Positions 4,425-61,229 of a stretch of 64,000 bases of DNA are shown in pieces. How positions within the stretch are numbered: the first letter of the stretch is position 1; each line of letters begins with the position of its first letter. The notes beneath the pieces were generated by a model that made no database searches, was not told where the DNA came from, and saw nothing but the letters and a program-made list of their open reading frames with translations. This DNA is from an uncultured Planctomycetales bacterium (GTDB lineage: Bacteria; Omnitrophota; Gorgyraeia; Gygaellales; Profunditerraquicolaceae): positions 261,115 to 325,114 of the forward strand of contig CAZIUK010000001.1 in assembly GCA_964542785.1 (NCBI GenBank), written 5' to 3'. The position numbers were made by a program, and so were the translations under genes.

Positions 4425-5642
4425 ATGAAAAAGCTGTTTAAGGTTAAAGCAAGAGGGTTAAATGAATCGCTTATTAAGTTTTCGCGCAAGATAACAGATT
4501 GTAATTTTGATACTGATGGTATTAAGGAACTCAGTGGTTTAATTTTAGGAGAGATGAAGTGTTTAGGTTTTGATAAAGTAATTAGTGATAGGATAGGTAA
4601 TTTGATCGGCGTAATAAAAGGATACGAAAATAAAGCCCCTATAGTTATTATTTCGCATATGGATATGCCTCCACTAGAAGAGCGTAAAGTAGAAGCTTGC
4701 CTTGAAAGTGGAATTATAAAATTTAAGGCAGGAATTATTTCTAGCATATATGCGGCTGCATTGATGAAAAGGACATTGTTGCCATTGACCGGGGATTTAA
4801 TTGTTTGTTGTGTGCTTAGAAATGAATGCTGCGATTATGGAATAAAATACCTATTTGAAAACTATTTAAAACCGAAGTTAAAGAAAATGCATGGTGTTAT
4901 TCTTTGTGAGCCGACTGATTTTAATATCTACTTGGGGCATAAGGGCAGGATGGAATATGAGATAATTGTGAAAGGTAGATTGAATAAGAATTTTGTAGAG
5001 AATAGAGGAATGAATATATTAGGGGCGATGTTTCCTTTGATTAACGAGCTGGAAAAAGCTTCAAAACAACTGCCTAATGATTCTAACCTTGGGTATTCTA
5101 ACCTTAGGATTAAGGATGTTAGGTATAGTGGTTATCAGCCGGAAGATGAACTTAGTGAGTTTAGGGTAATTGTGGATAGGGTATTTATCCCTAAGGAAAA
5201 TCTAAATGGTATTCTGGATAAAGCAAAGGCTATAGCCAAGACGGTATATAAAGGAGAATCGGATGTAACTATTAATACTGTGTTGGCGCGGAAGAGAGTG
5301 AAAACTTATTCTGGAGTTGAGCTTGTTTCTAAGAAGGAATTTAAGCCTTGGATCATGGATAGTCATCAGCCGTTTGCCTTGGAGTCGCTTAAAAGCCTGA
5401 CAGAGAATGGATTCAAGTCTGATTTTGGGTATTGGAAGAATATTACTACTGAAGGTTCTTATACTTGTGCTCAGCTGCATATACCTACGATTGGTTTTGG
5501 CGCGGGCTTAGAGGATGTTGTAGATTCAGGCGCTGAATCACTAAGCTTTGACAAATTGGGAAAAGCAGTATATGGGCTAGGGTTGATTGTCCAGAGGAAT
5601 ATAGGAATACCGACATTTGGTTGGAGTTCAGATGAAATCTAA
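4425..5642 (+). CDS. M20-family metallopeptidase / ArgE-DapE-like deacylase (divergent)
   Basis: ~405 aa with an SHMDMPPLEE (H-x-D) metal-binding motif; overall M20-like organisation. Assignment tentative. Confidence 0.4.
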   Translation: MKKLFKVKARGLNESLIKFSRKITDCNFDTDGIKELSGLILGEMKCLGFDKVISDRIGNLIGVIKGYENKAPIVIISHMDMPPLEERKVEACLESGIIKFKAGIISSIYAAALMKRTLLPLTGDLIVCCVLRNECCDYGIKYLFENYLKPKLKKMHGVILCEPTDFNIYLGHKGRMEYEIIVKGRLNKNFVENRGMNILGAMFPLINELEKASKQLPNDSNLGYSNLRIKDVRYSGYQPEDELSEFRVIVDRVFIPKENLNGILDKAKAIAKTVYKGESDVTINTVLARKRVKTYSGVELVSKKEFKPWIMDSHQPFALESLKSLTENGFKSDFGYWKNITTEGSYTCAQLHIPTIGFGAGLEDVVDSGAESLSFDKLGKAVYGLGLIVQRNIGIPTFGWSSDEI

Positions 5643-6855
5643 AGATAAACAGGTTAAGATCTTGGTATTGAATTGTGGAAGCTCTTCGCTAAAGTATAAA
5701 CTTATTTGTATGCCTCAGGAAGAGATTTTAGTACAAGGGGAAGCAGAGAGAGTGGGCATCAAAACAAGAGGCCTTTCTATTATTACACATATAGTTTCCG
5801 GCAGGAAAAAAATAATTAAGACTTTACCTCTTGATCATTCGTCTGCGCTTCAGAAAATTCTTGATCTATTGAAATTAAATAAAGGCATGGAGTTTGATAT
5901 AGTCGCCCATCGTTATGTCCATCCTGGTAATTATTTCAGCAGACCGATAAAAATAACTAAATTCGTATTGGCAAAACTTAAAGAAACTTTGCCGTTGGCA
6001 GCAATCCACAATCCTATATCCTATAGTTTGATTGAAAGTTGTTATAATGAGTATAGGCTTAAAAATCAGTATGCTGTTTTTGATACTTCTTTTCATAAGA
6101 CAATCCCGCCGGAATATTATTCTTATGCGCTTCCTAAGAGCTTGGTGAAAAAATACGGCTTAAGGAAAGTAGGTTTTCACGGAATATCCCACCGTTACGT
6201 TATGGAAGAAGTATCCCGGTATCTTAAAAAAGATAAATCAATTTTAAGGATGATTAGCTGTCATCTCGGAACCGGAGGATCAAGCGTATGCGCGATCCGG
6301 GAAGGAAAATCAGTCAATAATTCTATGGGTTTTACGCCGTTAGAAGGATTAATGATGAATACTCGTTGCGGAGATATTGATTTAGGCGTGGTATTCTACA
6401 TTATGTTTAAAGAACTGTTCTCTTCTGCACAGGCAGAGGATATTTTGAATAAAAAAAGCGGCGTCCTTGGAATATTCAATCTTTCCTCTGATTTACGAGA
6501 TGTAATTAAGAATATGGATAATGATAAGCAAGCAAGAATGGCTTTTAATATGTACGTGCGTAGGGTTAGGGCCTATATAGGTTTTTACAGTTTAATCTTA
6601 AAGAAGGCAGATGTCTTAGTATTTACGGATTCGTTGGGATTGGGGGAGCCATTATTGCGTAAGTATATATGTGATAATATGGCATTTTTAGGGATAAACA
6701 TAGATGAAAAGAAAAATAGCGGCTATAGTAAAGGCATAATGGATATTTCTTCGCTTAGTTCTGAAACTAGGATTTTAGTGGTTCCTACTGATGAAGAGAT
6801 TATGATTGCTAGGGAAGTTTATAAGGAGCTTAAAAGAAATGGTTCTAATTATTGA
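5632..6855 (+). CDS. ackA: acetate kinase
   Basis: ILVLNCGSSSLKYKL, AHRYVHPG, FDTSFHKT, GFHGISH, CHLGTGGSS, MGFTPLEG: all canonical AckA motifs. Start moved to the internal Met at 5632. Confidence 0.88.
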   Translation: MKSKDKQVKILVLNCGSSSLKYKLICMPQEEILVQGEAERVGIKTRGLSIITHIVSGRKKIIKTLPLDHSSALQKILDLLKLNKGMEFDIVAHRYVHPGNYFSRPIKITKFVLAKLKETLPLAAIHNPISYSLIESCYNEYRLKNQYAVFDTSFHKTIPPEYYSYALPKSLVKKYGLRKVGFHGISHRYVMEEVSRYLKKDKSILRMISCHLGTGGSSVCAIREGKSVNNSMGFTPLEGLMMNTRCGDIDLGVVFYIMFKELFSSAQAEDILNKKSGVLGIFNLSSDLRDVIKNMDNDKQARMAFNMYVRRVRAYIGFYSLILKKADVLVFTDSLGLGEPLLRKYICDNMAFLGINIDEKKNSGYSKGIMDISSLSSETRILVVPTDEEIMIAREVYKELKRNGSNY

Positions 6856-7936
6856 CTGCGATTTAAAGAAATTAAAAACCTGGGTATTTAAGGATAGCTG
6901 GGGAATCTCTAGGGAAGAATTTTTTGCTAAGAATCTCGATGAATTAACTGATGAAGCTGCCTTGCGCAAGTATATTTATGGAATTTCTGGAAAAACCCGT
7001 ATTAGGGCTATTGCTTTTAGGATATTATTTGGAGGTGATTATTTCAAGAAGGCAGAATTGATTGATAGTAATTTTTTTTCTAGGTTTAAAAGATTAACGA
7101 TTTTTTTCCCATTTTATGTGCCGACAATGTTGGAGGTTTTAAAAAGATTTCTGAAGATATTCAAGAAAATACCGCTCATAGCTTTTTTTGAGACCGCTTT
7201 TTTCACAAAATTACCAGATGAGGAAAAATATTACGCTTTGCCATTTGAGTATTATAAAAATACCGGAATTAAGAAGTGGGGGTTTCATGGTATTTTTCAT
7301 GAATCAAACGCACAGATGTTTATTAAGAGAAAAAAAGTGGTTTCTGTGGTTATGGATAAACAGACTACTGTATGTTCGATTATGGGTAATAGTCCATTTT
7401 CGGTTAGCATGGGTTATACTCCTTTGGAGGGGATTATGTCTCGCAGGAGCTGCGGGGATATTGATCCTGGTATAATTTTTTATCTTATGAATGTACATAA
7501 TTTTTCGATTTACCAGATTGATGAAGTATTGAAGAATGAAAGTGGTTTTTTCGGGGTTACTAGTTATGATATCGGCTTTACCGATATGTTAAAGTTACGA
7601 GGCAGGGATGCAAGAATTGATTTAGCTTTTGATATGTATAAGGCACAGATAATAAAGCATATCGGTGAAGCGGTTACTCTTATTGGGGGTTTAGATGTTG
7701 TTGTATTCGCGGGGGAGTATTTGATTAAGGCTGTGCCTTTAATCCGCGAAATAATCAAGCAAATATCTTTTTTGGGGATACATACTTTAGGTTTGACATG
7801 GGATGGAGATAATGATATGTATGCTGTTACTTCTAAGGAATCTAAAGTTGAAGTTTATATGAATATAATGGGGCTTTCGAAGACAATATATTACCAAAGC
7901 ATTAAGTTTTTGCATAATTCTGGAATAAGGCGCTAG
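6839..7936 (+). CDS. acetate/propionate-kinase-family paralog with degenerate catalytic motifs (possible pseudo-enzyme)
   Basis: Keeps GFHGIFH, MGYTPLEG and CGDIDP motifs. The phosphate-loop GSSS is replaced by DCDL (VLIIDCDLKKLK), and both conserved His positions are Phe (AFRILFGG; FETAFFTK). Confidence 0.6.
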   Translation: MVLIIDCDLKKLKTWVFKDSWGISREEFFAKNLDELTDEAALRKYIYGISGKTRIRAIAFRILFGGDYFKKAELIDSNFFSRFKRLTIFFPFYVPTMLEVLKRFLKIFKKIPLIAFFETAFFTKLPDEEKYYALPFEYYKNTGIKKWGFHGIFHESNAQMFIKRKKVVSVVMDKQTTVCSIMGNSPFSVSMGYTPLEGIMSRRSCGDIDPGIIFYLMNVHNFSIYQIDEVLKNESGFFGVTSYDIGFTDMLKLRGRDARIDLAFDMYKAQIIKHIGEAVTLIGGLDVVVFAGEYLIKAVPLIREIIKQISFLGIHTLGLTWDGDNDMYAVTSKESKVEVYMNIMGLSKTIYYQSIKFLHNSGIRR

Positions 7937-8038
7937 TATTGAATTAATCTTAAGGTATAGGAAAAGCAGCCCATTTAGCTATTCTGTAGCTTTAGCAAAA
8001 TGGGTATCCTTTTTTGTTTTTTGTGGTATAATATCTTC

Positions 8039-8638
8039 ATGGATGATTTAGGATTCGTCCGTAAGTTTATAAAAGGAGACATATCTGCCAGAGAAGAGTT
8101 TTTAAAACGTTATTCCCGCCTTATATACAGCTATATTTACCACACCTTGAGGCTTAAAGGTTTTAATCTTTACGTAGAGAGTGCAGATGATATATTTCAG
8201 AGCTTCTTTACTTTTATAATAGCAGAAGACTGTAAGCGTCTAAGGAGTTTTGGTGCTAAGAATGGATGTTCTCTTGCTACTTGGGTTAGGCAGTTGGTTA
8301 TAAACTTTACCATTGACTACATAAGGAAGATTCGGAAAAGAGTTCTAATTGATAACGAAGCTGGGGATTCTGATAGCTTAAAAGATGTATTGCTTGACAA
8401 TAATTTATCGGCTACGGATTCGCTTAATCTAAAAGAAAATCTTAAAATTTTAGCATATTGTATTGGGCTCTTAAATACCGACGATAAATTGCTTTTAGAG
8501 CTTAACCTTAATCAGGGGGTAAGACTTGAGGACTTAAGGGCTCTTTTAGGGCTTTCGCGTGGAGCGATAGATATGAGGAGGTCGCGTATAATAGAAAAGT
8601 TAAGGGATTGTTTTAAAGAAAAAGGTTTTTTATGTTAG
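8039..8638 (+). CDS. ECF-type sigma-70 family RNA polymerase sigma factor
   Basis: Region 2 (DDIFQSFFTFIIAEDCKRLRSF...ATWVRQLVINFTIDYIRKIRKR) and region 4 (LEDLRALLGLSRGAIDMRRSRIIEKLR) are recognisable. Start set at the internal Met. Confidence 0.75.
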   Translation: MDDLGFVRKFIKGDISAREEFLKRYSRLIYSYIYHTLRLKGFNLYVESADDIFQSFFTFIIAEDCKRLRSFGAKNGCSLATWVRQLVINFTIDYIRKIRKRVLIDNEAGDSDSLKDVLLDNNLSATDSLNLKENLKILAYCIGLLNTDDKLLLELNLNQGVRLEDLRALLGLSRGAIDMRRSRIIEKLRDCFKEKGFLC

Positions 8639-8684
8639 ATTTTTAGGTTTCATGCGTCTATTAAGTAAGGGGAGGCAGTAATCT

Positions 8685-9383
8685 GTGAAGAGCGATTTAG
8701 AGAATTTAATTAAGCAGGCCTTTAAAGAGTGGAAGAGTAAAAACCTTAACCTTACCGGCAGTCATCCGGATGAAGAGGATATTGTTTCTTTTGTTGAGGG
8801 TAAATTACCGAATAGCCGGAAAGAAGAGGTTAAGCAGCATATTATTCATTGTCAAGATTGCGCTAATCTTTTAGCTATTTTGTTGGCTTTGCCCACAGAG
8901 GAATATGAGCCTAGTCCTGTTTTAGTTAGTAAGGTTAAGGAGGCCTTAGGGGTGATAAAAATTCCGCAGACTGAAATATTCTTAAAAGTAAAAGAAAAGG
9001 CTTTTGAGTTGTTAAGGGCAAGCGGGGATATACTTATAGGCCAAGAGTTAATTCCTGCCGCAGTCCTTCGTAGCCGCAATTTGGATGAGTTAAAAGATGA
9101 AGTAGTAATGCTAAAGGATTTTGAGAGGTTAAGGTTAAAGATAAGGATAGAGAATAAACTTAAGAAATATTTTAATGTTAATATAGAGCTTACGGATAAA
9201 CTAAGCAAGTCTGCGAATAGGGATTTACGCATCAGTTTGTTTAAGGAAGAAGTTGAGCTTGAATCTTACCTTAATGATTCCGGGAGTGTTACCTTTGAAC
9301 ATATTCCTTTGGGTAGTTATAAGGTAATAGTATCTGACTTAGAGAAGGTTATTGCTTCTGTCTTTATTGAAGTTAAGGTTTAA
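8685..9383 (+). CDS. putative zinc-finger (zf-HC2-type) anti-sigma factor, soluble, with C-terminal beta-rich domain
   Basis: HIIHCQDCANLL matches the H-x3-C-x2-C anti-sigma zinc-finger motif. Immediately downstream of the ECF sigma. No TM segment. GTG start. Confidence 0.5.
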   Translation: MKSDLENLIKQAFKEWKSKNLNLTGSHPDEEDIVSFVEGKLPNSRKEEVKQHIIHCQDCANLLAILLALPTEEYEPSPVLVSKVKEALGVIKIPQTEIFLKVKEKAFELLRASGDILIGQELIPAAVLRSRNLDELKDEVVMLKDFERLRLKIRIENKLKKYFNVNIELTDKLSKSANRDLRISLFKEEVELESYLNDSGSVTFEHIPLGSYKVIVSDLEKVIASVFIEVKV

Positions 9384-9386
9384 GGA

Positions 9387-11567
9387 ATGGCGCAAGAAGA
9401 TATTTTAGTTTTAGAGGTTATCCGTGAGGGGGATCTGCTTAAGATGAGTATCTTAGGCAGTAAAGAGTTATCCCCTACCTTAAAGCACTATACGGAGCAT
9501 AAGGTTGATTTTTTAGAGATTGGTAGGCTCTGCCAAGAGATAACCCTTATTTTAAATAAGCCTCTATGTTCGGATGCGGCCGTTGCCCAGAGCCTTAAGA
9601 AAACCGGTTATGCTCTCTGGGATTGTTTATTTACCCGTTTAATAAAAGAAAAGTTAAAAAATAGCTTAGACTCAAGTCTTTTGCTTGAGATAGATGAAGA
9701 GCTTGTTTTTATACCTTGGGAGCTTCTCTTTGACGGAGAAGAGTTCTTGTCTTTAAGCTTTAATCTCGGAAGGCTGGTAAAGACAAAATCCACTCCGCCT
9801 TTTTTAAACTACCGCAGTTTATCTTTTACCTACAAGATGCTTGTTTTGGTTAATCCTACCGGGGATTTAAAGGGGGCTTATTTAGAAGGTATGAATATAA
9901 AAAACCAGTTTGACCGTAAGCGTAAAAATATCCGTATAGATTTTAAATCAACCGATATAGACAAGCTTTATGTAAAAAAAAGCATCTGTGATTATGATAT
10001 TATTCATTTTGCCGGGCATTGCGAATACGATTGCCGCAATCCAAACAATAGCGGTTGGGTTTTAAAAGATGGAAATTTTAGCATTCAGGATATTTTAAAA
10101 CTTGGTTCGGGGATCTCTTTACCGGCTTTAATATTTTCTAATGCCTGTAATTCTGCAAAGCAGGTATCATATAGCGACAAATTAGATGCAGATTACCAGA
10201 AGAAGAGCTACTCTTTGGCTTCAGCTTTCTTATTTGCCGGGGTGCGCCATTATATAGGTTCGGTAATGAAGATAGAGGATAAGGCAAGCGTTGTATTTGC
10301 AAAAGAATTTTACCGTAACTTAATCTCCGGTAAATCTATTGGCTTAGCATTGCGACTTTCAAGGATTAAGCTTGTAAATGAATACGGTATCTCTTCGGTC
10401 CAATGGGGCAATTACCTTCTTTATGGGGACCCGAGTTTTGTTATGTTTAGGCCTAAGGTTGTTAAGCATAAGAAAAAGTTTATTCTTCCTAAAAAACGTA
10501 TTATACAGTTAGCTTCTTTAGCGCTTTCTATTTTATTTATAGTTTTCTTATCTTTATTCTTGCCGACGCTTAACCCTAACGCGTATCTTCTTTTTTTAAG
10601 GGCGCAGGGTTATTATACTCAAGGGGTAAATCAAAAAGCATTTGATTTTGCGCAGAAGGCTATAGATAAAGATAGGGATTTCCTTAAGGCCTATCCGATT
10701 TTAGCCGGCTCTGTCCATCGGATGGGCAAGAAAGATGAAGCTATAAAATATTATTTTGATTATATAATGGCTTCAGAGAGGAAAAAAGATGACCGGCATT
10801 TAGCCTCTGCCTATATATCTTTAGGCTGGTTTTATCATCTTGACGGCGAATATAAGAGGGCTAAGGATTTTTATGAAAAGGGGATTACTTTAAGCACTAA
10901 GAGTTTAGATAAATCAAGCGAGGCTTTAGCTTTAAGAAAGCTTGCTGTCTGGCATATAGATATGCAGGAATATGATACTGCTCTTGAATTGCTGACTAAG
11001 AGTTCGGAGATAAATCGCCAGAAGCAACACTTATTTGAACATCGTTATAACCTTGCCTGTGATTATTTTGATATAGGGTTAGTTTTTACGGAGAAGGGTG
11101 ATTTTAAATCAGCAGAGGAGTTTTACCGCAGGAGTAAGGTTCTTTTTGAGAAGATTAATCTTAAAGGAGAGCTAAGTGATTATTATTTTAATTTAGGTGA
11201 GCTTTATGTTTTTGAGAAACATTACGAGAAAGCGCTGAGTTCTTATCTTGAGGGTTTAAAGATAGATCAAATCCAGGGGAATAAATTAAACCTTCCTTCG
11301 GATTACAATATGATAGGTGAGCTTTATTTTGATATGGATAACTTTGTTGATGCGGAGGATAGTTTTAAGGCTGCTTTGAAGATAGCCGAGGAGATTAGGT
11401 CAAGGCCGGACATAGCCGAAGCCGCTTACAACTTAGGTATTCTTTATAAAAAGTTAGGCAGAAAGAATAAAAGTAGGGAGTTTTTACGCCAAGCGCAGGA
11501 GATTTACGGGGTGATTGATCCTTTATCTTACGAAGAGGTTAAAAAAGAGATTTTAGGTGGTCCTTGA
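9387..11567 (+). CDS. CHAT-domain (caspase-like) protease fused to one TM helix and C-terminal TPR repeats
   Basis: DIIHFAGHCEY (His) and LIFSNACNSAK (Cys) form the CHAT catalytic dyad. Hydrophobic segment IIQLASLALSILFIVFLSLFLP, then ~330 aa of TPR-like repeats. Confidence 0.7.
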   Translation: MAQEDILVLEVIREGDLLKMSILGSKELSPTLKHYTEHKVDFLEIGRLCQEITLILNKPLCSDAAVAQSLKKTGYALWDCLFTRLIKEKLKNSLDSSLLLEIDEELVFIPWELLFDGEEFLSLSFNLGRLVKTKSTPPFLNYRSLSFTYKMLVLVNPTGDLKGAYLEGMNIKNQFDRKRKNIRIDFKSTDIDKLYVKKSICDYDIIHFAGHCEYDCRNPNNSGWVLKDGNFSIQDILKLGSGISLPALIFSNACNSAKQVSYSDKLDADYQKKSYSLASAFLFAGVRHYIGSVMKIEDKASVVFAKEFYRNLISGKSIGLALRLSRIKLVNEYGISSVQWGNYLLYGDPSFVMFRPKVVKHKKKFILPKKRIIQLASLALSILFIVFLSLFLPTLNPNAYLLFLRAQGYYTQGVNQKAFDFAQKAIDKDRDFLKAYPILAGSVHRMGKKDEAIKYYFDYIMASERKKDDRHLASAYISLGWFYHLDGEYKRAKDFYEKGITLSTKSLDKSSEALALRKLAVWHIDMQEYDTALELLTKSSEINRQKQHLFEHRYNLACDYFDIGLVFTEKGDFKSAEEFYRRSKVLFEKINLKGELSDYYFNLGELYVFEKHYEKALSSYLEGLKIDQIQGNKLNLPSDYNMIGELYFDMDNFVDAEDSFKAALKIAEEIRSRPDIAEAAYNLGILYKKLGRKNKSREFLRQAQEIYGVIDPLSYEEVKKEILGGP

Positions 11568-11601
11568 CAAAGGCTATAAAAATATGTTATACTTCTTTTG
11601 T

Positions 11602-11632
11602 AATTTGACAATTTGACAATTTGACAATTTGG
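11602..11632 (+). repeat. 8-nt tandem repeat (aatttgac) x ~3.9 carrying three TTGACA hexamers at 8-bp phase
   Basis: taATTTGACAATTTGACAATTTGACAATTTGg read directly. Confidence 0.9.
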
Positions 11633-11727
11633 TATTTTACCTAATGAAAAGGCTAACCAACAGTAATGTTGGGGCGCAAAGCTACCTGACCTAAGCTTTA
11701 AGGTTAGAGGGGTTGCCAAAAGGATGC

Positions 11728-11758
11728 ACCCTAAAGAATCCTTTAGGGTTTTTGTTTT
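11728..11758 (+). terminator. rho-independent terminator (first of a tandem pair)
   Basis: Perfect 9-bp stem accctaaag/ctttagggt, 4-nt loop, then TTTTGTTTT. Confidence 0.7.
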
Positions 11759-11872: not shown

Positions 11873-11917
11873 TAAAGGAGAGAGAGGGGGGTAGGAGATG
11901 AAAAGGAGGTGTATTTT

Positions 11918-12166
11918 ATGATAAAATCCGAGAAACAAATTACGGCGCATAGGGTGATAACGATGTTGGGCCGTAGAGAGATAGATTTTTTGGATAAGAT
12001 GGGCAAGGACGCCTTGTTTTCAACCGGGCGTAAGCTTTCTTATAATGAAATACTGCGGGGGCTTATCAGTTTTGCCATGGAAGCAGGCGTCTCAGGTGAC
12101 AATATAGATTCTTCTGATGCCCTTAAGATAAAGCTTATTGAGTGGGTATCTAAAAATAAAGGATAA
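11918..12166 (+). CDS. small hypothetical protein (83 aa), possibly ribbon-helix-helix-like N-terminus
   Basis: AGGAGG Shine-Dalgarno 8 nt before the ATG at 11918. The track's GTG start at 11909 lies inside the Shine-Dalgarno. No confident homology. Confidence 0.4.
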   Translation: MIKSEKQITAHRVITMLGRREIDFLDKMGKDALFSTGRKLSYNEILRGLISFAMEAGVSGDNIDSSDALKIKLIEWVSKNKG

Positions 12167-12190: not shown

Positions 12191-12628
12191 ATGTATAAGA
12201 AAATAGCAGTAGTTTTAGTTGTTGCCTTTCTTCTTTCGTTGGGATTAAATAGTATTGTTATGGCGGATTTAGAGGGGTGTGATGAAAATTATACGGAAGT
12301 AGTTATAATTCAAAGGATACCCGTAATTGATGCGGATAAGATACTTTATAAGGAAGGCCCTTTGAATAAGTTGGATAGGGGTATTATAAATGGCGCAACT
12401 TTTTGGACTGAGCTTCCTGCTGAGGTAGCAAAAGTTTCTAAAGAGCAGAATCCTGCTATGGGAGCTACTGTAGGCGTGGTACAAGGGACAATCACAAGCA
12501 TGATTCGCGCCGGTACAGCGTTATTTGATACGCTTACTTTTTTTATCCCTCCGTATGACAAGTCAATTATGAAGCCTGAATATGCGATTAGCCGTGCTGA
12601 TGTTAAGGTAAAGGACATTTTTTGGTAA
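12191..12628 (+). CDS. small secreted protein (signal peptide; hypothetical)
   Basis: N-terminus MYKKIAVVLVVAFLLSLGLNSIVMA is a signal peptide. AAAGGAGG Shine-Dalgarno. Confidence 0.5.
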   Translation: MYKKIAVVLVVAFLLSLGLNSIVMADLEGCDENYTEVVIIQRIPVIDADKILYKEGPLNKLDRGIINGATFWTELPAEVAKVSKEQNPAMGATVGVVQGTITSMIRAGTALFDTLTFFIPPYDKSIMKPEYAISRADVKVKDIFW

Positions 12629-12646: not shown

Positions 12647-12679
12647 AAGCGCCTTAGAGAAATCTAGGGCGCTTTTTTT
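12647..12679 (+). terminator. rho-independent terminator
   Basis: agcgccttag/ctagggcgct stem then TTTTTTT. Confidence 0.6.
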
Positions 12680-12726
12680 GTTAGATTTTCCTGCCTTATA
12701 CGTCTATTAGGGTAGGAGGTGGCAAA

Positions 12727-14316
12727 ATGAAAAGAAGAGGTTGGTTATGGGGTTTTAGCGGTACAGTCTTGTTTGTCTTATTGGTTGTATCTTTGTCTTG
12801 GGCTGGGAATGATTGGGATAATATTAGCAAGGAGATGCGTAATGCTAGGACAGTGTTTATTGACCCTGACGATACAAATGTAATTTATTTAGGTACGGAT
12901 AAAGGGCTTTTTAAAAGTTATGATGCAGGTGAGTCCTGGAAGAATCTTTTCTTGGCTAAAGTTAAGAATATAAGCGTTAATTTTATCTTTTTAAAACCTG
13001 AGGATAAGAATATTTTTTATGTGGCTACAGAAGAGGGGCTTTTTTATAGTGAGGATAAGGGGGTTAGATGGAGTAGGATATTTAAAGGCAAGGATAGATT
13101 AGAGGCGAATTGTTCCAGCGTGGTAGCGTTTAGGGAGAGCATCTTCTTAGGGACCAGTCAGGGGTTGTTTATAAGTAAGGATAGAGGTAGGAGTTGGCAT
13201 AAGCAGGGGGGTAGGTTAGGCAGGGCTGTTATTTTTAATATCCTTTCTTTCCTTAAGAATCCTGCTTTACTTTATATCTCTTCTTCTGATGGGGTCTTTA
13301 AGAGCGTAGATTATGGAAAAAACTGGGAGAGGGTTTTTATTTCAACCTCTAAGGATAGCGAAGAAGAAGAGGATGATAATGCCTTAGAGGATGTAGATGA
13401 AGATGCAGGATATTCTGATATAAGGCAGGTGGCTTTTTGCCTTGATAATCCAGATAGGCTTTTATTAGCTACATCAACTGGGATTTATCAAAGCAAGGAT
13501 AGCGCTTTAACTTGGGAGAAGTTCTCTGATTTTGGGTTACTTAGCTATGATGTTTCGTTTCTTTTTTGTGAGGAAGAGTCCCGTATATATTGCGCTACAA
13601 AATCAGGGATTTTTGTTTATGCTAAAGATAGGTGGGAGGAGCTTTCTTTGGGGCTTTCTTTTAAAAAGGTTAATTTCTTAGCTTTAGATAGGAATAATAG
13701 TCTTTATGCCTGTCTTGACAGCGGTTTATTTAGGCTAAGCTTAAAGGAATCTTTAGAGAAGAAAGATATTATAGAGGTTTATTTTAATAATGAGCCTACT
13801 ATAGCTGAAGTTCAAAGAGAGGCGATTAAATATGCTGAGGTCGGCCCTGAGAAGATATCTAACTGGAGGAGGCAGGCAGCTAAGAAAGCCTGGTTGCCTA
13901 AACTTACCCTTAAGTCAGATATAGACAGGAATAAAACAACTTCTAAGAGTATCTGGGGGACCTCTGGGACTAGTACTTATGATGGGAAGCATTACGTTGG
14001 ACCCGATGATGAGACGAGATATAATAATTTTAATTGGGATGTCTCTTTAGCATGGGATTTTGGCGATTTAATCTGGAATAGTGCTCAGACAAGCATAGAT
14101 GTGCGTTCGCGGTTGATGGTTCAGCTTCGGGATAGCATACTTGACGAGGTAAATAAGATCTATTTTGAGCGTATTAGGGTTAAGGCAGAGATAGACAATC
14201 TTTCTATTGAGGAGAGAAAGAAGAGGTTTGAAAAGGAGTTAAAGTTAAGGGAGCTTACTGCTTCTTTGGATGGTTTAACTGGAGGCTTTTTTTCTGCGCA
14301 ATTAAGCAAGAAGTAA
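12727..14316 (+). CDS. secreted BNR/Asp-box repeat (beta-propeller) protein with C-terminal coiled-coil region
   Basis: Signal peptide, then at least five S/T-x-D-x-G-x-x-W repeats (YDAGESW, EDKGVRW, KDRGRSW, VDYGKNW, KDSALTW). Acidic linker EEEEDDNALEDVDED. Confidence 0.6.
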   Translation: MKRRGWLWGFSGTVLFVLLVVSLSWAGNDWDNISKEMRNARTVFIDPDDTNVIYLGTDKGLFKSYDAGESWKNLFLAKVKNISVNFIFLKPEDKNIFYVATEEGLFYSEDKGVRWSRIFKGKDRLEANCSSVVAFRESIFLGTSQGLFISKDRGRSWHKQGGRLGRAVIFNILSFLKNPALLYISSSDGVFKSVDYGKNWERVFISTSKDSEEEEDDNALEDVDEDAGYSDIRQVAFCLDNPDRLLLATSTGIYQSKDSALTWEKFSDFGLLSYDVSFLFCEEESRIYCATKSGIFVYAKDRWEELSLGLSFKKVNFLALDRNNSLYACLDSGLFRLSLKESLEKKDIIEVYFNNEPTIAEVQREAIKYAEVGPEKISNWRRQAAKKAWLPKLTLKSDIDRNKTTSKSIWGTSGTSTYDGKHYVGPDDETRYNNFNWDVSLAWDFGDLIWNSAQTSIDVRSRLMVQLRDSILDEVNKIYFERIRVKAEIDNLSIEERKKRFEKELKLRELTASLDGLTGGFFSAQLSKK

Positions 14317-50257: not shown

Positions 50258-51338
50258 AAGGACGTTTTCTTTTTTAATTCTATTTATCTTTTTGTTTATT
50301 AGCCCTGCTATCTCTAAAAATTATCCGGAGGATAAGAATATGAATAATCCTTTTGGGGTGCTTGAGTTTTTGCATTGGAATCACGATTGGAATCACTACA
50401 AGTATTCTTCTGACCTTGAGCTTGAAAGGACAGCTAAGCTTATGAAAGAAGCAGGAGTTGGCTGGGCAAGGGTAGACTTTTTATGGCAGGATATAGAGCC
50501 AAAGGAAGGGGTATTTGATTTTGCTAAATATGACCGCATTGTAGATATTTTTTCTGCTAATAATATAAATATTTTAGGGCTTCTTAATTATAGCGCGGAT
50601 TGGGCAGCATTTGACGGCGGTTGGAATTCTCCTCCTAAGGATAATAAACTATTTGTTGCGTATGCTTCTAAAGTTATTAAACGCTACAAGGATAAGGTTA
50701 AATATTGGGAGGTATGGAATGAACCGGATTCTCCTATCTATTGGTCAGTTCAAGATGGGCTTAAGAGTTATGTCTCTTTATTAAAGGATGTTTATTTGGC
50801 AGCCAAAAAAATTGACCCGGATTGTAAGGTACTTAATGGAGGGTTAGCTAAAGGAATATCCAGTATAAACTGCTTATACGATAAGGGGGCAAAGGGATAT
50901 TTTGATATTCTAAATCTGCATTTTTTTGAAAACCCGTTGCGCAAAGGAGGTATAAAGGCTGTTGTCTCTTTTCCTAAGCTTGCCTATAAGATAATGTTTC
51001 GTAACGGAGATTGCAATAAGAAGATTTGGATTACTGAGATTGGTTGCCCCGGAGTAAGGAGAGGGTTGATGGTTAATAAATGGTGGTTAGGGAAGAACCC
51101 GACGGAGAAACAACAGGCACTTTGGCTAAAAAGGGTATATACAGAACTACTTAAGGATGAAAATGTAGAAAAGGTCTTTTGGGCTTTTTTTCGCGATACC
51201 AAAGAACATTGGGACAATGGAGTTGATTATTTTGGACTTATCCGTTGGAACTACTCTAAGAAGTCTGCCTTTAAGGCTTACCAAGATAGTTTTAATATTT
51301 GGAAGAAGAAAACTTTTGGTGCGGGAGGAGGGACTTGA
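50214..51338 (+). CDS. secreted clan GH-A glycoside hydrolase (GH5/GH39-like)
   Basis: Signal peptide; WEVWNEPD (N-E-P acid/base motif) and a TIM-barrel pattern. Start overlaps the upstream ORF, so the true start is uncertain. The last ~20 nt overlap tRNA-Leu. Confidence 0.5.
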   Translation: MITLILNSCRIKHIKRTFSFLILFIFLFISPAISKNYPEDKNMNNPFGVLEFLHWNHDWNHYKYSSDLELERTAKLMKEAGVGWARVDFLWQDIEPKEGVFDFAKYDRIVDIFSANNINILGLLNYSADWAAFDGGWNSPPKDNKLFVAYASKVIKRYKDKVKYWEVWNEPDSPIYWSVQDGLKSYVSLLKDVYLAAKKIDPDCKVLNGGLAKGISSINCLYDKGAKGYFDILNLHFFENPLRKGGIKAVVSFPKLAYKIMFRNGDCNKKIWITEIGCPGVRRGLMVNKWWLGKNPTEKQQALWLKRVYTELLKDENVEKVFWAFFRDTKEHWDNGVDYFGLIRWNYSKKSAFKAYQDSFNIWKKKTFGAGGGT

Positions 51339-51399
51339 ACCCTCATGCCTTGCGGCACAGGCTTCTGAGACCTGCGCGTCTGCCATTCCGCCACCCCCG
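51317..51399 (-). tRNA. tRNA-Leu (anticodon CAG)
   Basis: Reverse complement folds as GCGGGGG acceptor, anticodon loop CUCAGAA, long variable arm, T-arm GAGGGTTCAAGTCCCTC, encoded CCA. Confidence 0.85.
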
Positions 51400-51561
51400 C
51401 TAAAGTTGTTTTAAGTATATCTTAGGCAATAAATTCTGTCAAATATAAAAGATTTGCCGCCCTTTTAATTTACTGCTATAATAATAAATTCCGGAAAGCT
51501 TGAAAATGGCTATAGTTAAGAACGCTTTTTTGATTTCGTATTTTAATTAGTTTATGATAAA

Positions 51562-52040: not shown

Positions 52041-52437
52041 GGGGGTGAAAGGGCTCGACTTAGGCAGTTGAGTAAGAGTAGCATGCCGCGGACGCATGGT
52101 TAGCCGCGTTAACAACCCGTGCAAAATACAAACGCAAACAACCGTTTGTTTGATGTCAAGCCGATGGCTATGCCATCGTTTGGCATGATGCCAGCCTTCG
52201 CTAACTAAATTAGCGAAGCCTCTATCCGTTCCTATTCCTACAGGGCGGAATAGAGCATTAGTAGGATAGTTTTGCTGTTTATCCTTTGACGGCAGAATGA
52301 AACTATAAAAAGGATACGGCTTATAATGCCCCGCCTTGCAGAGCGTTATAAGCCTAAAGATAAATGCAGGGCTAAGCATGTAGTGGCTTTTATTCGGGTG
52401 TTTAAGGACCGGGGTTCGATTCCCCGCACCTCCACCA
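52041..52437 (+). ncRNA. ssrA: tmRNA (transfer-messenger RNA)
   Basis: 5' end GGGGGUGAAAGGGCUCGAC and 3' end GGACCGGGGUUCGAUUCCCCGCACCUCCACCA form the tRNA-like domain. Directly downstream of smpB. Confidence 0.85.
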
Positions 52438-59241: not shown

Positions 59242-59316
59242 CGGGGCGTGGCTCAGTTTGGCTAGAGCGCTTGCTTTGGGAGCAAGAGGCCACAGGTTCA
59301 AGTCCTGTCGCCCCGA
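59242..59316 (+). tRNA. tRNA-Pro (anticodon TGG)
   Basis: Cloverleaf with a C1-G72 acceptor, anticodon loop UUUGGGA, T-arm ACAGGTTCAAGTCCTGT. CCA not encoded. Confidence 0.8.
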
Positions 59317-59348
59317 CTAAACTTAAGTTAGAGTAAAATAAAGGAGGA

Positions 59349-59810
59349 ATGATGATAAGAGGTATTTTTGTTTTATTCTTTATTCTTTTTTCGTTTACCT
59401 GCGCCTTATCAGGCGAAGTTATTTCCAGGGAGGCTGATAATTATTATGCAGAGGGCGTAAAACAGCAAAAAGGGGATAATTTTCTCCAAGCAGATACCTT
59501 TTATCAGAAAGCTTTATTAGTTGATCCCTCTAACCTAAAATTAAAGAGGAGTATTCTTAATAATTACGGAGCAATGTTGGGCCAACAGGGCTTTTTAGAT
59601 GAGGCTGAAGAGAATCTGCTTGAGTCTCTTAGGATAGACCCTAATTATCTTCCCGCAAAGTTGAATTTAGGTTTTATATATGAACAACGTCGTAGCGAGT
59701 TAGAGTCTATAAAATATTGGTTACAAGTACTTCAAATTAATCTTGATGATATTAAGCCTAAAGGGTTTGTTTTAGGTGAACTTGAACCGGAAAGTAGTGT
59801 TGGTAAGTGA
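59349..59810 (+). CDS. small secreted TPR-repeat protein
   Basis: Signal peptide plus three TPR-like repeats. Confidence 0.55.
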   Translation: MMIRGIFVLFFILFSFTCALSGEVISREADNYYAEGVKQQKGDNFLQADTFYQKALLVDPSNLKLKRSILNNYGAMLGQQGFLDEAEENLLESLRIDPNYLPAKLNLGFIYEQRRSELESIKYWLQVLQINLDDIKPKGFVLGELEPESSVGK

Positions 59811-59820
59811 TTTTTAGTCT

Positions 59821-59894
59821 GCGCCTGTAGCTCAATAGGATAGAGCAACTACCTTCTAAGCAGTAGGTTGGCCGTTCGATTCGGCCCAGGCGCA
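59821..59894 (+). tRNA. tRNA-Arg (anticodon TCT)
   Basis: GCGCCTG acceptor, anticodon loop CUUCUAA, T-arm GGCCGTTCGATTCGGCC. Confidence 0.8.
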
Positions 59895-59918
59895 CTAGAT
59901 ATTAAATTTTTTTAAGAT

Positions 59919-61130: not shown

Positions 61131-61150
61131 CTTTTGACACATATTTTTAT

Positions 61151-61229
61151 GGTGGCTGTAGCTCAATCGGTTAGAGCGTCTGACTGTGGCTCAGAAGGTT
61201 TGCGGGTTCGATCCCCGTCAGCCACCCCA
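61151..61229 (+). tRNA. tRNA-His (anticodon GTG) with the extra 5' G(-1)
   Basis: 8-bp acceptor GGTGGCTG/CAGCCACC, anticodon loop CUGUGGC, T-arm GCGGGTTCGATCCCCGT, encoded CCA. Confidence 0.85.

What the first reader, a model, noticed from the sequence alone, without database searches (positions are those of the whole stretch)
8000..11567. ECF sigma, zinc-finger anti-sigma and a membrane CHAT-protease/TPR protein as a three-gene module
Three tightly spaced co-directional genes, with 46-nt and 3-nt gaps. (1) An ECF sigma with clear regions 2 and 4. (2) A 232-aa soluble protein with the H-x3-C-x2-C zinc-finger anti-sigma motif (HIIHCQDCANLL) and a C-terminal beta-rich domain; GTG start. (3) A 726-aa protein whose N-terminal ~340 aa is a CHAT caspase-like domain with an intact His/Cys dyad (HFAGHC ... 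FSNACNS). One TM helix follows, then ~330 aa of TPR repeats. A caspase-family protease placed across the membrane from a TPR sensor domain, next to a sigma/anti-sigma pair, suggests a proteolytic signal-transduction switch. In this model, TPR-sensed input activates CHAT cleavage of the anti-sigma or another target. CHAT proteases are effectors in several recently described anti-phage and conflict systems, so this may be an uncharacterised envelope-stress or defence signalling module rather than housekeeping.
Basis: partly seen in the sequence, partly recalled or inferred. Interest (0 to 1): 0.7.

Follow-up and report, generated by a model that had tools for sequence, protein, structure and literature searches.

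The report
ECF sigma, anti-sigma, membrane CHAT protease
A three-gene switch (sigma factor, zinc-finger anti-sigma, membrane-anchored caspase-like protease with an outward-facing TPR sensor) is real and is kept in the same order across the phylum Omnitrophota and in Nitrospinota; it looks like a core signalling module, not an anti-phage system, and I could predict its target promoter.

Summary
Three co-directional genes encode an ECF sigma, a soluble zinc-finger (ZAS) anti-sigma with a C-terminal beta-sandwich, and a CHAT–TM–TPR protein with an invariant His211/Cys254 dyad. The sigma's real start is probably 8039, not 8000.

The organism is a Candidatus Omnitrophota bacterium. The triad keeps the same order and tight spacing in every one of about 75 species-level genomes that have enough upstream DNA. 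A homologous sigma/anti-sigma/CHAT-TM triad also occurs in Nitrospinota and in another lineage. There the periplasmic domain is trypsin-like or CsgG-like instead of TPR.

The topology places CHAT in the cytoplasm, next to the soluble anti-sigma, and TPR in the periplasm. The closest characterised analogue is HetF of Anabaena (CHAT–TM–TPR), which cleaves the regulator PatU3 after Arg|Ser. The anti-sigma carries an invariant Arg129 followed by Ser, Gly or Asn.

A 16-base motif, GTTAGATT-N13-CGTCTATT, occurs exactly twice in the window: upstream of the anti-sigma gene and upstream of a BNR-propeller gene. It is near-perfectly conserved at both positions across genomes. In metagenomes it also precedes ComEA-like, ComM-like and ORF6N genes, lies upstream of RecA, and precedes others. 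I read it as the sigma's cognate promoter.

The proteolytic-switch reading is supported but unproven. The defence reading is not supported. Verdict: new variant of a known kind.

The parts
8024..8032 (+). Extended -10 sigma70-type promoter (TGgTATAAT), 6 nt upstream of the sigma ATG. This predicts a leaderless sigma mRNA.
   Evidence: TATAAT lies 5-9 nt upstream of the conserved ATG in 56 of 62 Omnitrophota loci.
8039..8638 (+). ECF (group 4) sigma factor, 199 aa from the conserved start. The longest ORF starts at 8000.
   Evidence: TIGR02937 scores 67 bits against a cutoff of 42.9. The start column is ATG in 58 of 62 loci. Family lengths centre on 201 aa.
8634..8662 (+). Predicted ECF-type promoter P1, GTTAGATT-N13-CGTCTATT. 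It overlaps the sigma stop codon (TAG, 8636-8638) and drives the anti-sigma and CHAT genes.
   Evidence: It is one of only two matches in 64 kb, where 0.03 are expected. The motif is present with at most 2 mismatches in 71 of 75 anti-sigma upstream regions.
8685..9383 (+). Soluble ZAS-type anti-sigma, 232 aa. The zinc ligands are H27, H52, C56 and C59. A linker spans residues 69-77 and a beta-sandwich spans 95-232. The candidate scissile site is R129|S130 (codons 9069-9074).
9387..11567 (+). CHAT-TM-TPR protein, 726 aa. The cytoplasmic CHAT domain covers about residues 72-348, with H211 (10017-10019) and C254 (10146-10148). The TM segment is I372-L392 (10500-10562). The periplasmic TPR superhelix covers residues 397-723.
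12680..12708 (+). Predicted ECF-type promoter P2, with the same 16 specified bases. It follows the terminator at 12647-12674 and lies 18 nt upstream of the BNR gene. Its spacer can pair with the downstream Shine-Dalgarno sequence.
12727..14316 (+). Exported BNR/Asp-box beta-propeller protein, 529 aa, with a signal peptide. It is the predicted regulon output and is linked to the module by the shared promoter motif.
   Evidence: Pfam Sortilin-Vps10, PSII_BNR and BNR. Signal-peptide-like N-terminus. The motif lies upstream in 34 of 36 loci, plus 2 loci with N14 spacing. A BNR homologue lies downstream of CHAT within the fetched DNA in about half of the loci.

Best explanation
This is a conserved transmembrane signalling cassette made of an ECF sigma, a soluble zinc-binding (ZAS) anti-sigma, and a HetF-like membrane protease.

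**Proposed mechanism**
- The cassette is transcribed from its own sigma70-type promoter as a leaderless mRNA.
- The anti-sigma's N-terminal four-helix ZAS domain holds the sigma inactive in the cytoplasm.
- The third protein has its caspase-family CHAT domain in the cytoplasm and a TPR superhelix in the periplasm.
- A periplasmic ligand, most likely a protein or peptide bound in the TPR groove, activates the CHAT domain.
- CHAT then cuts the anti-sigma, most likely after the invariant Arg129 (VLR|S) at the start of its beta-sandwich domain. This frees or destabilises the sigma-binding part.
- Free sigma directs RNA polymerase to GTTAGATT-N13-CGTCTATT promoters.
- One such promoter sits at the 3' end of the sigma gene. 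It re-expresses the anti-sigma and the protease, giving negative feedback and reset.
- Another drives the exported BNR-propeller protein.
- In other Omnitrophota the same motif precedes ComEA-like, ComM-like, ORF6N, Y1-transposase, DNA methylase and SpoVG genes, and lies about 240 nt upstream of RecA.

**Shown here:** gene order, domains, the catalytic and zinc residues, the predicted topology, and the conservation and placement of the motif.

**Inferred:** sigma binding, cleavage of the anti-sigma and its site, the nature of the signal, and that this sigma reads the motif.
For: **Synteny.** The triad is in the same order in every Omnitrophota locus with enough flank. 221 species-representative genomes encode a relative.

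**Coupling follows CHAT, not TPR.** The same anti-sigma family lies directly upstream of distant CHAT-TM proteins (36-47% identity) whose periplasmic domains differ. Full sigma/anti-sigma/CHAT triads occur in L207 and in Nitrospinota L209, where the sigma HMM scores 1.2e-37 and the anti-sigma HMM scores 4.4e-42.

**Active-site residues.** H211 and C254 are invariant. The HxAGH motif is kept in 147 of 150 clade representatives.

**Topology.**
- There is a single TM segment, with the positive charge on the N-side.
- Relatives carry an N-terminal class III cyclase fused to CHAT. That is what a cytoplasmic CHAT domain would predict, since class III cyclase catalytic domains are cytoplasmic (my own knowledge).
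- The sigma and the anti-sigma have no TM segment.

**Anti-sigma.**
- The ZAS ligands have the canonical spacing.
- The most conserved block outside the ZAS domain is G114-R131.
- R129 is followed by S, G or N in the remote homologues whose fragment covers that block.
- The AlphaFold2 model puts this block in a helix/loop between sheets.

**Precedents.**
- HetF (CHAT-TM-periplasmic TPR) cleaves PatU3 at R117|S118 (PMC9457339, PMC8406250).
- Csx29 cleaves Csx30 to free an ECF-like sigma (PMC10028731).

**Promoter motif.**
- Two sites in the window against 0.03 expected.
- Strict N15 spacing between GTTAGA and CGTC in 105 of 107 sites.
- Present in 71 of 75 anti-sigma and 34 of 36 BNR upstream regions.
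- Every GTTAGATT-type match in 1.09 Mb of loci lies upstream of one of those two genes.
- A CGTC-type -10 element is typical of ECF promoters (my own knowledge).
Against: **Nothing biochemical was tested.** No binding or cleavage assay was possible.

**Weak structural support.**
- The AlphaFold2 model of the CHAT domain is only moderate, and residues 252-296 around Cys254 have pLDDT below 50.
- The fold search was swamped by TPR hits.
- The window anti-sigma is below Pfam's zf-HC2 threshold.

**The link between this sigma and the motif is by position only.**
- The -35 element (GTTAGA) lacks the usual AAC core.
- The motif lies after the sigma gene rather than before it, so classical autoregulation of the sigma itself is not seen.
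- At non-anti-sigma sites the spacer pairs with the Shine-Dalgarno sequence. This could instead indicate an RNA element.

**Other routes to the same output.** ZAS domains can respond to redox on their own.
Confidence: 0.6

Rival explanations
1. The sigma and anti-sigma form a self-contained redox or metal-sensing ZAS pair, like RsrA or ChrR. The CHAT-TM-TPR protein is only a co-transcribed regulon member whose substrates lie elsewhere, for example envelope or division proteins as with HetF.
For: The ZAS motif is invariant. The CHAT gene lies downstream of the predicted sigma-dependent promoter, so it is itself an output. HetF's known substrate is not an anti-sigma (PMC9457339).
Against: The same anti-sigma family, including its C-terminal beta-sandwich, stays glued to CHAT across phyla while the periplasmic domain is swapped. 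The gaps are 0-10 nt or overlapping. The best-conserved anti-sigma segment, with an invariant Arg, lies outside the ZAS domain.
Confidence: 0.2
2. It is a split anti-sigma. The anti-sigma's beta-sandwich docks on the CHAT domain, tethering the sigma/anti-sigma complex to the membrane. Signalling works by a conformational change or by autoproteolysis of the CHAT protein, as proposed for DdvA, and not by cleavage of the anti-sigma.
For: DdvA fuses a ZAS domain, a TM segment and TPR-CHAT in one chain, and is proposed to autoprocess (PMC11506125). The coupling between the anti-sigma and CHAT is tight.
Against: In DdvA the CHAT domain is periplasmic and its active site is incomplete. Here the dyad is invariant and cytoplasmic. 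The conserved Arg|small-residue site in the anti-sigma matches HetF's specificity (PMC9457339).
Confidence: 0.12
3. It is an anti-phage or conflict system in which CHAT acts as the effector protease.
For: CHAT proteases act in type III-E and III-B CRISPR and in CBASS-linked systems (PMC10028731). There are weak NCBIfam similarities to the type III-E sigma (28.5 bits) and to Csx29 (28.4 bits). In metagenomes the motif precedes ORF6N, methylase and Y1-transposase genes.
Against: Those scores are far below the cutoffs of 100 and 300. There is no PADLOC match. No cas or defence genes appear among the neighbours whose annotation was read. Synteny is vertical and phylum-wide.
Confidence: 0.04
4. GTTAGATT-N13-CGTCTATT is not this sigma's promoter. 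It is either a cis-regulatory RNA or DNA element (a hairpin that sequesters the Shine-Dalgarno sequence, with a conserved loop) or the site of another regulator. In that case the module would simply be one of its targets.
For: At BNR and other sites the spacer pairs with the Shine-Dalgarno sequence, at -16 to -21 kcal/mol with z scores of -2.6 to -5.3. Long stems are in excess: 40 of 215 sites against about 12.5 expected.
Against: The anti-sigma sites keep all 16 specified bases but have A/T-rich spacers and no hairpin, so the conserved bases work without the stem. No Rfam family matched at these positions. No sigma70-type promoter is visible between the terminator at 12647-12674 and the BNR start. 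The two-block layout and fixed spacing fit a -35/-10 pair.
Confidence: 0.2

Closest known systems
HetF / PatU3 of Anabaena sp. PCC 7120
   Same: HetF has the same architecture: an N-terminal CHAT domain, one TM segment and a periplasmic TPR domain. It cleaves a soluble cytoplasmic regulator after Arg117|Ser118 (PMC8406250, PMC9457339). The anti-sigma here has an invariant Arg129 followed by Ser, Gly or Asn.
   Different: This protein is not a HetF orthologue: the NCBIfam HetF model scores 23 bits against a cutoff of 1200. The partner here is a ZAS anti-sigma with an ECF sigma, not PatU3 or the divisome. The predicted output is transcription.
DdvS / DdvA of Myxococcus xanthus (ECF sigma with a ZAS-TM-TPR-CHAT anti-sigma)
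   Same: It combines an ECF sigma, a zinc-binding N-terminal anti-sigma domain, and TPR plus CHAT modules across the membrane. CHAT-mediated proteolysis is proposed as the trigger (PMC11506125).
   Different: In DdvA everything is one polypeptide, TPR-CHAT is periplasmic, the active site is incomplete, and RseP intramembrane proteolysis follows. Here the anti-sigma is a separate soluble protein, CHAT is cytoplasmic with an intact dyad, and only TPR is outside. The DdvA type was reported only in Myxococcota and one Comamonas species.
Type III-E CRISPR Craspase (Csx29 TPR-CHAT, Csx30, CASP-sigma/RpoE)
   Same: A CHAT protease cleaves a sigma-sequestering protein and releases an ECF-like sigma (PMC10028731).
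   Different: The Craspase trigger is RNA-guided Cas7-11 in the cytoplasm. Csx30 is unrelated to ZAS domains. The sequence matches here are far below the family cutoffs. No cas genes are nearby.
Classical sigmaE/RseA-type regulated proteolysis (DegS, RseP)
   Same: A periplasmic protein- or peptide-binding sensor domain controls proteolytic removal of an anti-sigma and release of an ECF sigma (my own knowledge of the pathway).
   Different: In that pathway the anti-sigma spans the membrane. It is cut first outside by a serine protease and then within the membrane. Here the anti-sigma is soluble and the protease's catalytic domain is cytoplasmic and caspase-like.

Membership tests
ECF (group 4) sigma70 factors | Sigma2 and sigma4 domains only; matches the ECF profile | tested here: met
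   TIGR02937 scores 67 bits against a cutoff of 42.9, covering residues 29-204. The protein is 199-212 aa. The Pfam r2 and r4 hits are individually below threshold.
ECF (group 4) sigma70 factors | Cognate anti-sigma encoded next to the sigma and co-directional with it | tested here: met
   The sigma-to-anti-sigma gap has a median of about 38 nt in 62 loci.
ECF (group 4) sigma70 factors | Own promoter of the ECF type (AAC-containing -35, CGT-containing -10) upstream of the operon | tested here: inconclusive
   The operon's own promoter is sigma70-type, TGnTATAAT. An ECF-like motif with a CGTC -10 lies after the sigma gene and in front of the anti-sigma gene. Its -35 element, GTTAGA, lacks AAC.
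ZAS (zf-HC2, class I) anti-sigma factors | H/C-x23-26-H-x3-C-x2-C zinc motif | tested here: met
   H27-x24-H52-x3-C56-x2-C59. H52, C56 and C59 are invariant and H27 is kept in at least 90% of sequences. Remote homologues have Cys at the first position.
ZAS (zf-HC2, class I) anti-sigma factors | Pfam PF13490 at or above the gathering score | tested here: not met
   The window protein scores 18.6 bits against a cutoff of 22.2. Several orthologues carry a precomputed PF13490 hit.
ZAS (zf-HC2, class I) anti-sigma factors | Helical anti-sigma domain that binds sigma2/sigma4 | not testable with these tools
   AlphaFold2 predicts four helices at residues 2-67 with pLDDT 62-83. No complex prediction or binding assay was available.
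CHAT (PF12770, clan CD cysteine peptidases) | Profile match above threshold | tested here: met
   E=2.4e-27 and 96.6 bits against a cutoff of 24, over residues 72-348.
CHAT (PF12770, clan CD cysteine peptidases) | His-Cys catalytic dyad in HxxGH ... SNAC context | tested here: met
   H211 and C254 are invariant in 18 and in 71 orthologues. The corresponding His and Cys are also invariant in 56 diverse clade members.
CHAT (PF12770, clan CD cysteine peptidases) | Caspase-hemoglobinase fold confirmed by structure comparison | tested here: inconclusive
   The AlphaFold2 model of the CHAT part has pLDDT 60-90, with residues 252-296 below 50. Foldseek returned only TPR hits. No PDB sequence hit was found.
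HetF family (NCBIfam NF045509) | Equivalog-level sequence match | tested here: not met
   23 bits against a cutoff of 1200.
HetF family (NCBIfam NF045509) | CHAT-TM-TPR architecture with cytoplasmic CHAT | tested here: met
   HetF's architecture is described in PMC8406250 and PMC9457339.
DdvA-type TPR-CHAT anti-sigma | ZAS domain, TM segment and periplasmic TPR-CHAT in one polypeptide | tested here: not met
   The anti-sigma and the CHAT protein are separate genes. The anti-sigma has no TM segment, and CHAT lies on the N-terminal (cytoplasmic) side.
Type III-E Craspase module | Csx29 and CASP-sigma profile matches, plus a Cas7-11 or CRISPR neighbourhood | tested here: not met
   Csx29 scores 28.4 against a cutoff of 300. 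The III-E sigma scores 28.5 against a cutoff of 100. The neighbours are acetate kinase, LytB and BNR.
Known anti-phage defence systems (PADLOC) | Match to any defence-system protein model | tested here: not met
   Only a generic TPR model matched, at E=7e-07. There were no hits for the sigma, the anti-sigma or the BNR protein.

The most novel reading that the evidence does not exclude
This would be a previously undescribed, cross-phylum route of ECF sigma activation. A HetF-like membrane-anchored caspase-family protease senses a periplasmic ligand through a swappable outer domain (TPR, CsgG-like or trypsin-like). It then cuts a soluble ZAS anti-sigma at a conserved Arg on the cytoplasmic side, replacing the site-1/site-2 intramembrane cascade. 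In Omnitrophota it would control a small regulon: BNR propeller, ComEA-like, ComM-like, probably RecA, ORF6N and others. The promoters of that regulon carry an anti-Shine-Dalgarno sequence in the spacer, so only sigma-initiated transcripts would be translatable.
Probability: 0.4. Interest if true: 0.75.

Novelty: new variant of a known kind. Interest (0 to 1): 0.62.

Why it matters
- **A gap in known mechanisms.** ECF sigma factors are a major class of bacterial signal transduction. The known activation routes are regulated intramembrane proteolysis, partner switching, phosphorylation and C-terminal extensions. A dedicated cytoplasmic caspase-like protease acting on a soluble anti-sigma, wired to a periplasmic sensor, would be a further route.
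- **A substrate hypothesis for many orphan proteins.** The CHAT-TM clade has 644 cluster representatives (one per 50%-identity cluster) at E<1e-30. In 6 of the 7 distant relatives whose context was read, the anti-sigma encoded immediately upstream is the obvious candidate substrate.
- **A handle on uncultured organisms.** For Omnitrophota this gives one conserved regulator, a precise 16-base promoter motif and candidate target genes. Some of these concern DNA uptake and recombination. All can be tested in heterologous hosts and in metatranscriptomes.

Tried and rejected
**Searches that gave nothing useful**
- **Foldseek, CHAT-TM-TPR model:** TPR proteins dominated the results, so the search says nothing about CHAT.
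- **PDB sequence search, residues 1-378:** no hit.
- **ECF classification paper:** its supplements are not held as text. The main text does not mention CHAT or Omnitrophica. The sigma's ECF group could therefore not be assigned. ECF54 has been noted to have CHAT proteins in its context, but that group is actinobacterial and lacks an anti-sigma.
- **PADLOC:** no defence hit.

**Ideas tested and dropped**
- **Rosetta-stone fusion.** I asked whether the roughly 220-aa N-terminal extension in some CHAT relatives is a fused anti-sigma. It is not; it is a class III nucleotidyl cyclase.
- **REP/RAYT-like repeat.** I considered this reading because the motif has an adjacent hairpin and sometimes precedes Y1-transposase genes. 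I rejected it for three reasons:
  - The stems differ from site to site while the flanking and loop bases are fixed.
  - The sites always face a downstream gene and include its Shine-Dalgarno sequence.
  - The anti-sigma sites have no stem.

**Checks with negative results**
- **More motif sites in the window:** none, even with up to 3 mismatches.
- **Paralogues of the three genes in the window:** none.

Full report
**1. Observation**

The three ORFs are present exactly as described: sigma at 8000/8039-8638, a 232-aa protein at 8685-9383 with a GTG start, and a 726-aa protein at 9387-11567. The gaps are 46 nt and 3 nt.

- **Sigma.** It passes the NCBIfam ECF model TIGR02937 (67 bits, cutoff 42.9). 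The Pfam region 2 and region 4 hits are below threshold.
- **Second protein.** It scores just below Pfam's zf-HC2 cutoff (18.6 against 22.2). However, H27-x24-H52-x3-C56-x2-C59 is invariant or nearly so in 76 locus-derived homologues and in 39 database homologues. That is the canonical ZAS spacing. It has no hydrophobic segment. AlphaFold2 predicts a four-helix N-domain (2-67), a disordered linker (69-77), a helix (78-87) and a beta-sandwich (95-232).
- **Third protein.** It matches CHAT (E=2.4e-27) and TPR families (TPR_12, E=1.2e-32). H211 and C254 are invariant in 71 orthologues.
- **Correction.** The start conserved across genomes is ATG 8039, giving 199 aa. It is ATG in 58 of 62 aligned loci.

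**2. Organism and conservation**

All close homologues come from Candidatus Omnitrophota metagenome-assembled genomes. A pattern scan of one genome per GTDB species found 221 genomes encoding a relative. The best 80 hits are 51-92% identical over the full length.

Every one of those 80 loci with enough upstream DNA has the sigma and anti-sigma homologues directly upstream of CHAT, in the same order and orientation. In 62 loci all three are complete ORFs, with median gaps of about 38 nt and 4 nt. The flanking genes in the window are housekeeping: two acetate kinases and LytB/IspH. The window has no paralogues of the three genes.

This is the pattern of a vertically inherited core module, not a mobile island.

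**3. Topology**

- A single hydrophobic segment (I372-L392 in the window) is present in 76 of 76 homologues.
- On average there are 5.7 Lys+Arg on its N-side and 1.5 on its C-side.
- There is no signal peptide.
- CHAT is therefore predicted to be cytoplasmic and TPR periplasmic.
- Relatives carry an N-terminal class III nucleotidyl cyclase fused to the same CHAT-TM unit. That is what a cytoplasmic CHAT domain would predict, since class III cyclase catalytic domains are cytoplasmic (my own knowledge).
- AlphaFold2 gives a high-confidence TPR superhelix at residues 397-723 (pLDDT above 90). It resembles peptide-binding LGN/Pins-type TPRs.

**4. The wider family**

A full HMMER search with residues 1-375 found 644 cluster representatives (one per 50%-identity cluster) at E<1e-30.

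- 130 of the best 150 have a TM-like segment 150-390 residues after the catalytic His.
- In 56 sampled members the C-terminal domains vary: TPR in about 17, CsgG-like in 12, and others. Eleven carry an N-terminal cyclase.

I read the genomic context of seven distant relatives. Six have a homologue of this same anti-sigma family immediately upstream, by family-HMM match in five and, for P0253, by gene order and size only:

| Relative | Periplasmic part | Context |
|---|---|---|
| P0253 | TPR | 201-aa and 231-aa genes upstream, matching the sigma and anti-sigma in size only (no DNA held, no Pfam hits) |
| P0246 (1533 aa) | long TPR | anti-sigma upstream |
| P0312 | CsgG-like | anti-sigma upstream |
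| P0309 | CsgG-like | full sigma/275-aa ZAS/CHAT triad in NCBI assembly GCA_028282925.1 |
| P0364 | TPR and CsgG-like | anti-sigma upstream |
| P0271/P0391 | trypsin-like | Nitrospinota; sigma family HMM 1.2e-37, anti-sigma family HMM 4.4e-42 |
| P0277 | TPR and CsgG-like, with N-terminal cyclase | no sigma or anti-sigma nearby |

The anti-sigma therefore tracks the CHAT domain while the sensor domain is exchanged. That is what is expected if CHAT and the anti-sigma work on each other.

**5. Candidate cleavage site**

Outside the zinc motif, the best-conserved part of the anti-sigma is G114-D-x-L-x-G-Q-E-L-x-P-A-x-x-L-R129-S-R131. An HMM alignment that includes the remote homologues keeps the Arg, followed by Ser, Gly or Asn. 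The variants are VLR|S, LLR|G, ALR|S, -VR|G and FVR|N, and KAR|N in Nitrospinota. In the model this stretch forms a short helix and loop between the first small sheet and the main sandwich.

HetF of Anabaena has the same CHAT-TM-periplasmic-TPR architecture. It cleaves its soluble substrate PatU3 between R117 and S118, and R117 is essential (PMC9457339, PMC8406250). I therefore propose R129|S130 as the scissile bond. This is an inference, not a result.

**6. Transcription signals**

*Operon promoter.* A TGnTATAAT extended -10 element lies 5-9 nt upstream of the sigma ATG in 56 of 62 loci (window 8024-8032). This implies a leaderless mRNA from a housekeeping-type promoter, preceded by terminators of the upstream gene.

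*The 16-base motif.* GTTAGATT-N13-CGTCTATT occurs exactly twice in the 64-kb window. One copy is at 8634-8662, overlapping the sigma stop codon and 22 nt upstream of the anti-sigma GTG. The other is at 12680-12708, 18 nt upstream of the BNR-propeller gene, just after a terminator. Only 0.03 matches are expected by chance, and no further sites appear with up to 3 mismatches.

Across the genome loci:
- The spacing between GTTAGA and CGTC is 15 nt in 105 of 107 sites.
- The motif is present with at most 2 mismatches in 71 of 75 anti-sigma upstream regions.
- It is present in 34 of 36 BNR upstream regions; the other two use N14.
- Every GTTAGATT-type match in 1.09 Mb lies upstream of one of these two genes.

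The proteins are only 36-60% identical in most of these genomes, so the motif is under strong selection. Its two-block layout, its CGTC -10 and its position next to a sigma/anti-sigma pair make it most likely the sigma's cognate promoter. The BNR protein is then a fourth, functionally linked part, even where it lies several kb away.

**7. Wider regulon**

An exact-pattern scan of metagenome contigs was cut off at 120 loci. It found the motif in front of a Shine-Dalgarno sequence and start codon, mostly 10-40 nt away. The downstream genes were:

| Downstream gene | Sites |
|---|---|
| ORF6N | 16 |
| HHH_3 (ComEA-like) | 11 |
| Mg-chelatase (ComM/YifB-like) | 11 |
| anti-sigma | 10 |
| Y1 transposase | 9 |
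| BNR | 6 |
| DNA methylase | 4 |
| 23S-IVP | 3 |
| SpoVG | 3 |
| RecA (motif 244 and 86 nt upstream; a short ORF may come first) | 2 |

- The family names were confirmed with Pfam.
- The RecA and methylase clusters carry Candidatus Omnitrophota names.
- The two module sites make up about 13% of the sampled sites. This suggests roughly 15 such promoters per genome, but the estimate is rough because the sample was truncated.

**8. Unexplained feature**

At BNR and most other sites the promoter spacer is C/T-rich and complementary to the downstream Shine-Dalgarno sequence. The predicted hairpins have energies of -16 to -21 kcal/mol and z scores of -2.6 to -5.3. The anti-sigma sites have A/T-rich spacers and no hairpin.

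One reading is this. Transcripts that read through from upstream would have their ribosome-binding site occluded. Transcripts started by the sigma downstream of the -10 element would lack the 5' arm and be translatable. This is analogous to fold-back inhibition in IS10 (my own knowledge). The alternative is that the motif is an RNA element, which I keep as a rival.

**9. Comparison with known systems**

- **Works like:** HetF/PatU3 (architecture and probable specificity), Csx29/Csx30/CASP-sigma (a CHAT protease frees a sigma) and DdvA/DdvS (ECF sigma plus ZAS plus TPR plus CHAT across a membrane).
- **Not a member of any of these.** The HetF, Csx29 and III-E sigma profiles score far below their cutoffs. 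The DdvA arrangement, a single chain with periplasmic CHAT, is not met.
- **Not a defence system.** No defence-system model matches.
- **Not described.** I found no paper describing this triad. ECF54 has been noted to have CHAT proteins nearby but lacks an anti-sigma.

**10. Verdict**

The proteolytic-switch interpretation is the best-supported model, at about 0.6, but it is untested. The defence interpretation is not supported. It is a new variant of a known kind: ECF signalling by regulated proteolysis, with a HetF-like cytoplasmic CHAT protease and a soluble ZAS anti-sigma. It is conserved across at least two phyla, and it comes with a predicted promoter and regulon that make it directly testable.

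Noticed in passing
window 8024-8041: The sigma gene appears to be leaderless. A TGnTATAAT element ends 6 nt before the conserved ATG at 8039, and the arrangement is kept in 56 of 62 Omnitrophota loci. A crude scan suggests a few other leaderless candidates in the window, for example the starts at 19071 and 47045.
   Followed up: partly
window 11564-11749: A c-di-GMP-I riboswitch lies at 11641-11720 (64 bits against a gathering score of 35). It follows a TTGACA-18-TATACT promoter that overlaps the CHAT stop codon, and it is followed by a terminator-like hairpin at 11728-11749. It precedes orf85 (11909-12166) and a TIGR04073 exosortase-associated exported protein (12191-12628). Similar riboswitch sequences lie 45-290 nt after the CHAT stop codon in at least 13 of 78 loci. 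Another locus has two PilZ genes at that position.
   Followed up: partly
window 11602-11632: Three tandem copies of AATTTGAC, then AATTTGG, sit between the riboswitch promoter and the aptamer. Similar TTGACA-containing repeats occur at the same place in other loci. Their function is unknown.
   Followed up: no
window 12680-12735; loci L083-L202: The spacer of the GTTAGATT-N13-CGTCTATT motif is often complementary to the downstream Shine-Dalgarno sequence. The hairpins have energies of -16 to -21 kcal/mol and the CGUCUAUU block sits in the loop. This holds at BNR and most other target sites but never at the anti-sigma site. It may insulate the gene from read-through transcription.
   Followed up: partly
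loci L083-L202 (metagenome contigs): The same 16-base motif precedes ORF6N, ComEA-like, ComM/YifB-like, Y1-transposase, DNA-methylase, 23S-IVP and SpoVG genes in metagenome contigs, and lies 86-244 nt upstream of RecA. The RecA and methylase clusters are named Omnitrophota. This hints at a regulon with a DNA-uptake and recombination flavour.
   Followed up: partly
proteins P0277, P0280, P0282, P0283, P0288; locus L205: A subfamily fuses a class III adenylate/guanylate cyclase to the N-terminus of the same CHAT-TM unit. The periplasmic part is TPR/CsgG-like in some members (P0277 by Pfam) and was not determined in others. In the one context read (P0277) there is no sigma or anti-sigma nearby. 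P0314 instead has a large multi-pass membrane region N-terminal to CHAT, which I did not identify.
   Followed up: partly
window 5617-7936: Two tandem acetate-kinase paralogues overlap slightly. The second (6806-7936) is divergent, at about 30% identity to the first and with Pfam E=1.4e-50. Acetate kinase also recurs within 8 kb of the module in many other loci.
   Followed up: no
window 1-64000: GC skew is strongly positive throughout, at +0.12 to +0.33 in every 2-kb bin, with 35-46% GC. This is unusually high and uniform. It was not examined further.
   Followed up: no
window 52041-52437; 51320-51400; 59242-61226: The window contains a tmRNA gene (175 bits) and four tRNA genes.
   Followed up: no
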